From the human T2T-CHM13v2.0 reference genome, Homo sapiens, in assembly GCF_009914755.1 (NCBI RefSeq), contig NC_060929.1: 64,000 nt of DNA; one strand, 5' to 3'. This document shows positions 60,551 to 63,131 of the stretch, piece after piece. Within the stretch, counting starts at the first letter, position 1; each line of letters opens with the position of its first letter. The position numbers were made by a program, and so were the translations under genes. The notes beneath the pieces were generated by a model. That model did not search any database. It was not told the DNA's origin and saw nothing but the letters and a program-made list of their open reading frames with translations.

Positions 60551-60646
60551 TGGGGCTGGGTGTGGGGCGAGGGGGAGTGAAAGGGTGACACGGAGCTGCC
60601 GCGGCTCAGGAGCCAGTGGTTGGGGGTCTGAGAAGAACTCACCACC

Positions 60647-60834
60647 TTGAAGAAGTTCTTCGGCTTTGGGAGCCGCAGGGGCCGGCGGTCCGGGGCTCCC
60701 TAGGCCACGTCTACAGGGGTTCGGGGTACCGAATCGGAAGATCCACAGGGCGCTGTCAAGGGCGAAGCCGCGGAAGTGGAGCGCTGCCTGGCGCGCAGGA
60801 GCGGAGACCTGGAAGCCGGGGACAGGCAGCACAG
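60647..60834 (+). pseudogene. Decayed ANKRD20A/ANKRD18-type coding exon 1
   Basis: Across frameshifts reads (L)KKFFGFGSRRG..GSLGHVYRGSGYRI..RKIHRA.VKGEAAEVERCLARRSGDLEAGDRQHR; ATG is replaced by TTG after CACCACC; donor reads GC. Confidence 0.82.
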
Positions 60835-61138
60835 GCAGCGGGGTGTGGGCTCAGCCCAGGGTGGGAGGGGGTCCCCAGGCCCGGCTTCCCCGCAGCCCCT
60901 GGGATGGGGCCTCGGAGGGCACCCTCAGAGGGGTGGTGCCAAACGGAGCCTCAGCTGCTCTGCATCCCCCATAATTCCCCAGCTGGAGCGCTTGGTGGAG
61001 AATGTGAGTGATTTAACTCACCAAGCTAAGCATACACAGTGTTATTTTTAACCTACACGTTTAAAACATGATGTTATATACATTATAGGAGGTGCCTAAT
61101 GAGAGAACTCATTCCTCTATCAAAAAATACCGTGAGTC

Positions 61139-61457
61139 GGCCGGGCGCGGTGGCTCAGGCCTGTAATCCCAGCACTTTGGGAGGCCGAGGCGGGCGGATC
61201 ACGAGGTCAAGAGATCGAGACCATCCTGGCTAACACGGTGAAACCCCGTCTCTACTAAAAATACAAAAAAAAAAAAAAAAAATTAGCCGGGCGTGGTGGC
61301 GGGCGCCTGTAGTCCCAGCTACTCGGGAGGCTGAGGCAGGAGAATGGCGTGAACCCGGGAGGCGCAGTTTGCAGTGAGCCGAGATCGCGCCATTGCACTC
61401 CAGCCTGGGCGACAGAGTGAGACTCCGTCTCCAAAAAAAGAAAAGAAAAAAAAAAAA
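61139..61457 (+). mobile_element. AluY
   Basis: Near-consensus; ccgtgagtc duplicated on both sides. Confidence 0.96.
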
Positions 61458-61741
61458 CCGTGAGTCATTTTCAGTAGCGAAAAGCTCTCACCTAAAACTG
61501 TCCGTTTTACATCCGTATCCACCTGTGTAGATCGGTTCTTTACTGAAGGTTCTTAGAAGGAAACTTGGAAGTGGGAGGTGGGTTCTGTGTTCCTGAATGG
61601 GAAGACACATTTTTCTCAAAATGTGAGCTCTTTCTGTGATTATCAATTTTACATAAGCCGAATGAAAAAATCAAGGTTTTAACATTTTTGCATGACACCT
61701 ACTGTCTTTTACTATTGTAATGATATTTGTAAAACTTTTAG

Positions 61742-62036
61742 GGCTGGGCGCGGTGGCTCAGGCCTGTAATCCCCGCACTTTGGGAGGCCGAGGTGGGCGG
61801 ATCACGAGGTCAGGAGATTGAGATTGAGACCATCCTGGCAAACACGGTGAAACCCTGTCTGTACTAAAAATACAAAAAAAAAAAAAAAAAATAGCCGGGC
61901 GTGGTGGTGGGCGCCCATAGTCCCAGCTACTCCGGAGGCTGAGGCAGGAGAATGCTGTGAACCCGGGAGGGGGAGCTTGCAGTGAGCCGCCATCCAGAAG
62001 TGCTGGGATTACAGGTGTGAGCCACCGCGCCCGGCC
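61742..62036. mobile_element. Truncated AluY fused to an inverted Alu 5' fragment
   Basis: Sense Alu stops at gtgagccgc; antisense aagtgctgggattacaggtgtgagccaccgcgcccggcc follows. Confidence 0.88.
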
Positions 62037-62651
62037 TGAAAAGTGCATCTTCATTTTACAGGGAATTCTTTCAAATCAAATAATCAAAAACTGTAAAAGG
62101 GGGCAAAGTACTTTTTTGCAGATCTACAAGTTTCTTATGTAAATAGGAAAAAAAGCCTTTGCTTTTCTGGTATAAGCATTTAAATTAAAAGAGGAATGAA
62201 ACTGTTTTCTATCCACAATGTGTGAGGATGTTTTTTATACTGCTGCCTGAAGTTTAAGTTGCTGATTACTTTTTAAATAGATAATTTGGTGGTAAGTACT
62301 ATATTTTAAAAATGCGTATGCCCGTTACCCTTCAATTCCATTATACTAAAATACCCTTGGGAAATAGAGATACATGCACTTTGTTTTTCACAGCACTTAT
62401 TTTAAAAAGAACCCATAGAATGGATCTTATAAGTAAATTTCAGTTGCATCCATAGGATGCAATAATATGTGACCATCAAAGGTGACAATAGATATAGAAG
62501 TACGTTGATGTGCAAAGATGTATTTTGTTTTAGCCAGCGAGGAAAAAAGAATCAGTTTGATTATACATTTACCAAACATTAAGAATTTAATATGGTAACT
62601 TTTATTTCAGTATTAAAATAGCAATTTTATTTATTACTTTTTTATATATAG

Positions 62652-62707
62652 AATTCGACACCAAATTTTGGAACTTAAAAAGAAGATTCTTAAAACTTAC
62701 AATCCAG
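62652..62707 (+). pseudogene. 56-nt exon homologous to the post-ankyrin exon of ANKRD20A/18 (probable FAM153CP 5' exon)
   Basis: tttttatatatag|A ATT CGA...CCA G|gtaaga; reads IRHQILELKKKILKTYNP. Confidence 0.68.
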
Positions 62708-63131
62708 GTAAGACTTCTGATAGTGAATTTCTCATTTCTCGTGGTGGTCCTACTCTTGGTTTAAAAAAATTAAGATGTAAGATTAAGGTAGTTTTGAAGG
62801 AAAAGAAAAGTTTAAAAAGATGTGTAAATTGCATGTATATATACATATATACATACATGTAAATTAGTTTCTTATATTTAACTTCTTTAGTTTGGAATTA
62901 AGAGTTATTTAAGAAGGTAGTTGTAGCTGATTTATAATCTCAAACAGTATTATCTGAAAAAAAATCATTTACTTAATTATGATCCCGAAAATCCTATATA
63001 ATATTTATGTTTTCTCTATAGTCACATTGTAACAAATTGGACTTGTTATACATATGGATCTTCTAGTTCATTTTTGTAATAAGTTGTTTATTTTTATAAT
63101 AAATTGTTTATATTTAGTAAATACATAATTA

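What the first reader, a model, noticed from the sequence alone, without database searches (positions are those of the whole stretch)
60641..62713. FAM153-type 5' end is a gutted ANKRD20A/ANKRD18 gene
Seen: an exon-1 relic closely matching my recollection of ANKRD20A (MKLFGFGSRRG...HVYTGSGYRI...KIHRAAVKGDAAEVERCLARRSGDL...QHR), with ATG>TTG, frameshifts and donor GT>GC (60835). A good alternative donor AAT|GTGAGT lies at 61004. Only 1.8 kb later is an intact 56-nt exon, IRHQILELKKKILKTYNP, resembling the post-ankyrin exon (IQQQILEHKKKILKK). No ankyrin-repeat exons lie between. Inference: the ankyrin exons were deleted, exon 1 became UTR (with a possible 18-codon TTG uORF, 60647-60703), and downstream exons evolved into FAM153. 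This would place an orphan primate family in the ANKRD26/POTE lineage.
Basis: partly seen in the sequence, partly recalled or inferred. Interest (0 to 1): 0.7.

Follow-up and report, generated by a model that had tools for sequence, protein, structure and literature searches.

The report
FAM153 borrowed an ANKRD20A front end
The primate FAM153 genes begin inside a copied front end of the ankyrin gene ANKRD20A that has lost its ankyrin exons, but their protein-coding exons match a different family of duplicated DNA, so FAM153 is likely a fusion gene running on a borrowed promoter rather than a descendant of the ankyrin protein.

Summary
Window 58996-62579 is the promoter, exon 1 and intron 1 of an ANKRD20A duplicate (88-89% identical to 18 ANKRD20A-type loci). 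A 10.1-kb deletion at 62579/62580 removed ankyrin exons 2-5, and 62652-62707 is ANKRD20A exon 6. All three chr5 copies share the junction, ATG>TTG, GT>GC and a newly created donor at 61004. But ANKRD20A colinearity stops at window-equivalent ~71280, after exon 7. The FAM153 reading frame starts at 83921, and its exons show no DNA or protein similarity to ANKRD20A (best E 0.36). They align with a separate dispersed family on chr10, 2, 22, 14, 12 and 5. FAM153 is therefore likely a duplication-made fusion: ANKRD20A CpG-island promoter and 5'UTR plus foreign coding exons. Old World monkey gene models suggest that the fusion came first and the ankyrin deletion later. RefSeq already labels the exon-1 relic an ANKRD18A pseudogene; ten literature searches found no account of the fusion. 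New member of a known kind; interest 0.4.

The parts
58996..62579 (+). ANKRD20A-derived segment left of the deletion: upstream CpG island, exon 1 relic, start of intron 1
   Evidence: Colinear with chr9:79640976-79643681 at 73-87%; GC 0.59-0.69 and CpG o/e 0.57-1.81 over 59000-61000. Left edge not fixed: only 1.5 kb of flank was held.
59058..59342 (+). Upstream first exon used by ape and monkey FAM153 gene models (donor at 59343)
   Evidence: Chimpanzee predicted isoforms P0007/P0011/P0018/P0021 map here; Cercocebus atys P0023 maps to 59256-59339. The human frame has a stop.
59590..59911 (+). Second upstream first exon in chimpanzee and gorilla models (donor at 59912)
   Evidence: P0008, P0010, P0012, P0019, P0042 map here; predicted models only.
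59909..60542 (.). 19-bp CpG-rich tandem repeat, expanded from a short stretch of ANKRD20A 5' sequence
   Evidence: TRF 33.3 copies; 654, 749 and 502 bp between the same anchors in the three chr5 copies; only a short related stretch in the chr9 locus.
60647..60834 (+). Dead coding part of ANKRD20A exon 1 (ATG>TTG, frameshifts, donor GT>GC at 60835); RefSeq LOC100288656
   Evidence: Alignment; TTG and GC shared by 3 of 3 chr5 copies.
60647..60703 (+). Possible 18-codon TTG-started uORF (translation untested)
   Evidence: Sequence; identical in 3 of 3 chr5 copies.
61004..61009 (+). New splice donor GTGAGT, made by a T>G change
   Evidence: Present in 3 of 3 chr5 copies and 0 of 24 other ANKRD loci; use in RNA not shown.
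61139..61467 (+). Alu insertion whose target-site duplication copied a cryptic donor (61131) to 61460, the donor of RefSeq FAM153CP exon 1 (61018-61459)
   Evidence: Sequence; the 61131 motif pre-exists in 16 of 18 ANKRD20A-type loci; hub annotation.
62579..62580 (+). Junction of the 10.1-kb deletion that removed ankyrin exons 2-5
   Evidence: Alignment jump of 10,088-10,110 bp in 7 of 7 loci measured; no long microhomology; Pfam ankyrin hits for 4 of 4 deleted exons; same junction in 3 of 3 chr5 copies.
62652..62707 (+). ANKRD20A exon 6 ortholog (56 nt); exon 2 of FAM153CP
   Evidence: hub annotation.
62580..64000 (+). ANKRD20A-derived segment right of the deletion; continues past the window to window-equivalent ~71280 and includes the 31-nt exon 7 ortholog at 69912-69942. 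The FAM153 coding exons, not ANKRD-derived, lie further out at window-equivalent 83921-100449.
   Evidence: 82-88% colinear with chr9:79653799-79661505. Coding exons mapped with human FAM153A proteins and Pfam PF15722; their relatives.

Best explanation
The FAM153 front end is a copy of the ANKRD20A promoter-to-exon-7 region whose ankyrin exons 2-5 are deleted, sitting ahead of coding exons that match a different duplicated family, so FAM153 is likely a duplication-made fusion gene that probably uses the ANKRD20A CpG island as promoter and the leftover ANKRD20A exons as 5'UTR. Shown: homology, deletion, end of the ANKRD block, foreign coding exons. Inferred order: (1) an ANKRD20A-like 5' segment landed upstream of the FAM153-type exons before apes and Old World monkeys split; (2) the ankyrin frame died; (3) exons 2-5 were lost by a non-homologous deletion, likely on the ape side; (4) new or copied donors (61004, 61460) let the first exons splice to exon 6 or further down; (5) the unit was triplicated on 5q35. 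Translation likely starts at the FAM153 ATG (83921).
For: Colinearity and breakpoints. Tree of 28 loci over 1,373 columns puts the chr5 copies with ANKRD20A-type loci (split support 91; 87.5-89.4% against 82.5-85.2% for ANKRD18-type). tblastn of 823-aa ANKRD20A2 on 63.4 kb of FAM153C finds only exons 1 and 6 at E<0.5. 18 FAM153 x 16 ANKRD20/18 proteins: best E 0.36 of 148 HSPs; HMM scores -14 to -30 bits, shuffles median -21.7. PF15722 matches only chr5 and chr16 (18 matches, 22 of 22 candidates scored). Searches with all candidates scored list no locus inside an ANKRD gene. 11 of 70 FAM153-like proteins have N-termini in the ANKRD block. P0119 joins ANKRD20A exon 3 (49/60, E 2e-28) to macaque-like FAM153 exons (93/94).
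Against: No RNA, CAGE or ribosome data were seen; promoter use rests on RefSeq exons and predicted models. The fusion-before-deletion order rests mainly on one unnamed gene model (P0119) and one predicted mangabey model (P0023), not on monkey DNA. A chr12 locus has an older ANKRD-type 5' end 30 kb upstream of a FAM153-type exon on the same strand, which a single chr5 fusion does not explain. Searches scored only 40 of 13,030 and 40 of 2,611 candidates. ANKRD26, ANKRD30, ANKRD36 and POTE proteins were not compared directly.
Confidence: 0.78

Rival explanations
1. Deep ANKRD link: an older primate ANKRD-family gene already carried FAM153-type exons behind its ankyrin exons; chr12:107.8 keeps that layout, and FAM153's 5' end was later replaced or converted by an ANKRD20A copy.
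For: chr12 ANKRD-type 5' end (81% to the window, no shared deletion) with a FAM153-type exon, splice sites kept, 30 kb downstream on the same strand. Acrocentric ANKRD promoter-only fragments have weak hits (E 6e-8 to 1e-6) to the region before the first FAM153 coding exon about 79 kb downstream on the same strand at 4 places. Exon 6 joins exon 86072 in frame in chimpanzee models.
Against: No ANKRD intron-1 match lies near the other relatives on chr10:38.1/43.4, chr2:131.8, chr14:45.6, chr22:29.9/32.6, chr5:176.72/181.24 (40 of 50 candidates scored). The chr12 piece's own relatives include no ANKRD locus (34 of 34 scored). A mosaic of chr10-related pieces lies between the ANKRD block and the coding block.
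Confidence: 0.11
2. Passive neighbour: the ANKRD20A relic is only part of the duplicon mosaic and of non-coding isoforms; protein-coding FAM153 mRNA starts from its own promoter nearer 83921.
For: An L1-like repeat of about 6 kb and a VNTR lie between. The human FAM153A proteins retrieved start at or just before the 83921 ATG, which says nothing on where the mRNA starts. The window copy is annotated as a pseudogene.
Against: RefSeq starts FAM153CP at 61018 and uses 62652-62707. Chimpanzee, gorilla and mangabey models splice from the ANKRD block into the coding exons. Exon 6 and 7 splice sites are intact.
Confidence: 0.07
3. One reading: FAM153 is a gutted ANKRD20A whose downstream exons diverged into the FAM153 protein.
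For: The 5' third is ANKRD20A-derived. FAM153-type exons change faster than their introns (66% against 78-80% for one exon versus chr10), so exon similarity could be lost.
Against: Introns would still align at about 85%, as they do up to 70949; they do not beyond ~71280. The same introns align at 67-80% with non-ANKRD loci. No protein similarity.
Confidence: 0.04

Closest known systems
ANKRD20A family (ANKRD20A2 protein P0054)
   Same: Promoter region, exon 1, intron 1, exons 6 and 7 are homologous and colinear.
   Different: No ankyrin exons, no start codon, no exon 8 onward, no CCDC144C coiled-coil part; the FAM153 protein carries only PF15722 above cut-off.
RefSeq LOC100288656, ankyrin repeat domain 18A pseudogene (60544-60834)
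   Same: Names the same exon-1 relic.
   Different: Covers 291 bp of a block of about 12 kb, does not link it to FAM153CP, and the relic is nearer ANKRD20A than ANKRD18.
POTE-actin chimeric genes (PMC7073761, passages seen)
   Same: Primate ANKRD26-family 5' part fused to foreign coding sequence in segmental duplications.
   Different: POTE-actin keeps the ankyrin protein and adds actin by retrotransposition; FAM153 discards the ankyrin protein, keeps promoter and UTR, and its partner has introns.
Segmental-duplication fusion genes such as USP6/TRE2, CHRFAM7A, HYDIN2, BAGE (recalled, no call)
   Same: New gene made by placing one duplicon's promoter or 5' exons before another's exons.
   Different: Different partners; here the 5' partner is emptied of coding sequence after the fusion (order inferred).

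Membership tests
ANKRD20A / ANKRD26-POTE family (gene 5' segment) | Colinear DNA homology of promoter, exons and introns | tested here: met
   58996 to ~71280 colinear with chr9:79640976-79661505 apart from the deletion.
ANKRD20A / ANKRD26-POTE family (gene 5' segment) | Groups with ANKRD20A rather than ANKRD18 loci | tested here: met
   Tree and identities; the ANKRD18 label for the second clade is recalled from position.
ANKRD20A / ANKRD26-POTE family (protein) | N-terminal ankyrin repeats | tested here: not met
   Exons 2-5 deleted; no ankyrin Pfam match in 6 of 6 FAM153 proteins.
ANKRD20A / ANKRD26-POTE family (protein) | Downstream coiled-coil exons (PF14915) or any protein similarity | tested here: not met
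   Best blastp E 0.36; HMM within shuffles; no exon 8 or later in 63.4 kb.
ANKRD20A / ANKRD26-POTE family (protein) | Remote similarity to ANKRD26, ANKRD30, ANKRD36 or POTE repeat exons | tested here: inconclusive
   The repeat-unit DNA hit none of these loci (35 of 35 scored), but the search fades near 65% identity and those proteins were not in hand.
Segmental-duplication fusion gene | 5' and 3' parts have different closest relatives with a junction between | tested here: met
Segmental-duplication fusion gene | Spliced transcripts cross the junction | tested here: inconclusive
   RefSeq NR_149722.1 spans 61018-117001 (hub table) and 11 of 70 predicted proteins begin in the ANKRD block; no reads seen.
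Segmental-duplication fusion gene | The captured promoter drives expression | not testable with these tools
   Needs CAGE, ATAC or a reporter assay.

The most novel reading that the evidence does not exclude
FAM153 is the protein-coding member of an unrecognised dispersed primate gene family (chr10, 2, 22, 14, 12, 5, 16; by recalled position it includes C22orf42 and touches the FAM230 repeats) that has paired with ANKRD-type promoters more than once. In catarrhines it captured an ANKRD20A front end, apes then deleted the ankyrin exons and gained new donors, and some ape isoforms may still translate ANKRD20A exon 6 in frame with FAM153.
Probability: 0.3. Interest if true: 0.6.

Novelty: new member of a known kind. 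Interest (0 to 1): 0.4.

Why it matters
It gives a concrete origin to a catarrhine-only family of unknown function in the 5q35 repeats (recalled as the Sotos-syndrome repeats). It predicts that FAM153 expression follows ANKRD20A's promoter while the protein's relatives lie elsewhere. It shows, step by step, how a duplicated gene can be hollowed into a promoter and UTR donor: fusion, deletion, new donors by a point change and by an Alu target-site duplication. It also corrects the idea that FAM153 is an ankyrin-lineage protein. It is a tidy case of a known process, not a new mechanism.

Tried and rejected
FAM153 protein as an ANKRD20A descendant: rejected. Alu-Alu recombination as the cause of the deletion: rejected, the junction is in unique sequence with at most 1-2 shared bases. 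The chr8:43.52 locus as a fourth copy of the deletion: rejected, its breakpoints differ. The chr12 locus as sharing the deletion: rejected. Donor 61131/61460 as a new mutation: rejected, the motif is in 16 of 18 ANKRD20A-type loci. The 71+31-nt FAM153 repeat unit as the ANKRD30/36 repeat (their 102-nt unit is recalled): no DNA hit at those loci. P0119's ankyrin exon as part of a known macaque ANKRD20A protein: it matches them at 48 of 58 only. ESM Atlas gave no usable hit for P0005. Literature: searches found 0 papers; some searches gave listings with no title or abstract start on FAM153's origin; two papers on the 5q35 repeats were not held. One extraction missed exon 6 in two copies through an anchor mismatch and was redone. 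The acrocentric and chr16 flanks and the middle of the chr12 locus were not read.

Full report
Observation. Aligned to chr9:79.64 Mb, whose exon-1 peptide is 100% identical to human ANKRD20A2, window 60564-61137 is 81.7% identical with gaps. It shows ATG>TTG at 60647, a 3-nt insertion, deletions of 1, 16 and 1 nt, and GT>GC at 60835. Exon 62652-62707 is ANKRD20A exon 6, 56 nt in both. RefSeq already names 60544-60834 an ANKRD18A pseudogene and lists 62652-62707 as exon 2 of FAM153CP (hub table).

The deletion. A search with 62040-63060 splits at query base 540 (window 62579): the left part hits intron 1 of ANKRD20A-type loci, the right part hits about 10 kb further on (40 of 133 candidates scored). 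The gap is 10,088-10,110 bp in the 7 loci measured. In the chr9 locus it holds exons 2-5, and 4 of 4 match Pfam ankyrin models. None of these exons has a remnant in the window or in 63.4 kb of the FAM153C locus. The junction lies in unique sequence with at most 1-2 shared bases and is the same in all three chr5 copies (178.56, 178.33, 176.61 Mb). The last two are FAM153A and FAM153B by recalled position and by PF15722 matches.

Which parent. A tree of 28 loci on 1,373 window-projected columns groups the chr5 copies with the 18 ANKRD20A-type loci (87.5-89.4% identity), apart from six loci at 82.5-85.2% (ANKRD18-type by recalled position) and chr12 (81.1%); support for that split is 91. Indels were ignored in this alignment.

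Splice remodelling. TTG and the GC donor are shared by 3 of 3 chr5 copies. The 61004 donor is in 3 of 3 chr5 copies and 0 of 24 other loci, so it is a new T>G change. The motif at 61131 pre-exists in 16 of 18 ANKRD20A-type loci. An Alu inserted there and its target-site duplication produced the donor at 61460 that ends RefSeq exon 1. A 19-bp repeat at 59909-60542 is expanded and differs in length among the copies. The TTG uORF is identical in the three copies, but they are 99% identical throughout, so this is no sign of function.

Colinearity with ANKRD20A continues at 82-88% to window-equivalent 70949, plus 25 bp after an Alu to ~71280 (chr9:79661505), taking in the 31-nt exon 7 at 69912-69942. 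It then stops. ANKRD20A exon 8 lies at chr9:79663139 and is not in FAM153C; tblastn of the 823-aa protein finds only exons 1 and 6 at E<0.5. Next come a tandem repeat shared with chr10:134.57, a piece shared with chr10:43.96 and an L1-like repeat. The FAM153 frame starts at 83921 and runs to 100449. 18 FAM153 proteins against 16 ANKRD20/18 proteins give a best E of 0.36 among 148 HSPs, and a FAM153 HMM scores them at -14 to -30 bits (15 of 16 reported) against a shuffle median of -21.7. The coding exons and their introns align instead with chr16:33.0/34.4 (85-93%, a partial copy spanning the fusion point), with chr5:181.24 (67-92%) and at 67-80% with chr5:176.72, chr10:38.12/43.44, chr2:131.84, chr14:45.56, chr22:29.87/32.62 and chr12:107.78. 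Searches scored all candidates (9, 22, 35, 34); searches scored 40 of 13,030 and 40 of 2,611. I recall chr22:32.62 as C22orf42 and the weak 22q11 hits as FAM230 repeats; no call names them.

Use in transcripts and timing. All 46 named proteins among 49 FAM153 hits are from apes or Old World monkeys. 11 of 70 FAM153-like proteins have N-terminal parts in the ANKRD block; five chimpanzee predicted isoforms read exon 6 in the ANKRD frame straight into FAM153 exons, and one reads exons 6 and 7 in another frame. In the human window the two long upstream frames have stops, so these exons are likely UTR here. A predicted Cercocebus atys protein starts in 59256-59339 (79%, E 1e-8). Unnamed P0119 joins ANKRD20A exon 3 (49/60) and a stretch of intron 1, both inside the human deletion, to exons 93/94 identical to a Macaca fascicularis FAM153. 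This suggests fusion before the ape-monkey split and deletion afterwards. These are gene models, not reads or DNA.

Against a simple story. chr12:107.81 is an older ANKRD-type 5' end without the deletion, with a FAM153-type exon 30 kb downstream on the same strand. Four acrocentric ANKRD promoter-only fragments have weak FAM153-region hits about 79 kb downstream. The other relatives have no ANKRD intron-1 match nearby (40 of 50 scored), and the chr12 piece's relatives include no ANKRD locus. Repeated promoter capture and an older ANKRD-linked ancestor both remain open.

Literature. Ten searches (listings and abstract starts only) showed no paper on FAM153's origin. Passages seen: PMC7073761 (POTE derives from ANKRD26; POTE-actin chimeras; FAM153 0 times), PMC4079513 (FAM153A/B in a table of internal repeats), PMC10229068 (table entry), PMC3510424 (FAM153 0 times). 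Subscription papers on the 5q35 repeats and on ANKRD26-family evolution were not seen, nor any supplements; segmental-duplication tables there may already record the ANKRD20A-5q35 homology.

Verdict. A real ANKRD20A-derived promoter and 5'UTR with a clean ankyrin deletion, likely fused to unrelated coding exons. New member of a known kind, interest 0.4.

Noticed in passing
L027/L073, G000:C8:43521339-43524600: An ANKRD-type locus with an independent deletion (equivalent to chr9:79644291->79654009) that removes exons 2-6, and also a GC exon-1 donor. Ankyrin-exon loss has happened at least twice.
   Followed up: partly
L069/L070, G000:C12:107776069-107808041 (-): Older ANKRD-type 5' end with a FAM153-type exon 30 kb downstream; the exon region is 80-85% identical to chr22:32.62 and chr22:29.87.
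   Followed up: partly
L028-L030, acrocentric arms (e.g. G000:C21:10721804-10722273): ANKRD20A promoter-only fragments (equivalent to window 59630-60636) that stop just before the start codon, with weak FAM153-region hits about 79 kb downstream at four places.
   Followed up: partly
window 8139-8471 and 9065-10681: 73-74% identical to FAM153C intron sequence at window-equivalent 97544-99730; lies within lncRNA LOC100128340, whose exon 10684-10765 follows at the place of the FAM153 exon near 99745. Possibly an older FAM153-type relic.
   Followed up: no
G000:C16:33006664-33030325 and C16:34415902-34439570: Two partial FAM153 copies (85-93%) that begin inside the ANKRD block after exon 6, span the fusion point and carry PF15722 exons.
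   Followed up: no
window-equivalent 86072-86215 versus L071: This coding exon is 66% identical to its chr10 homolog while the flanking introns are 78-80%: exons changing faster than introns, one pair only.
   Followed up: no
window 59909-60542: 19-bp CpG-rich VNTR between the upstream first exons and exon 1, 502-749 bp in the three copies; could differ in methylation between paralogs. The antisense lncRNA LOC124906531 is spliced across it.
   Followed up: no
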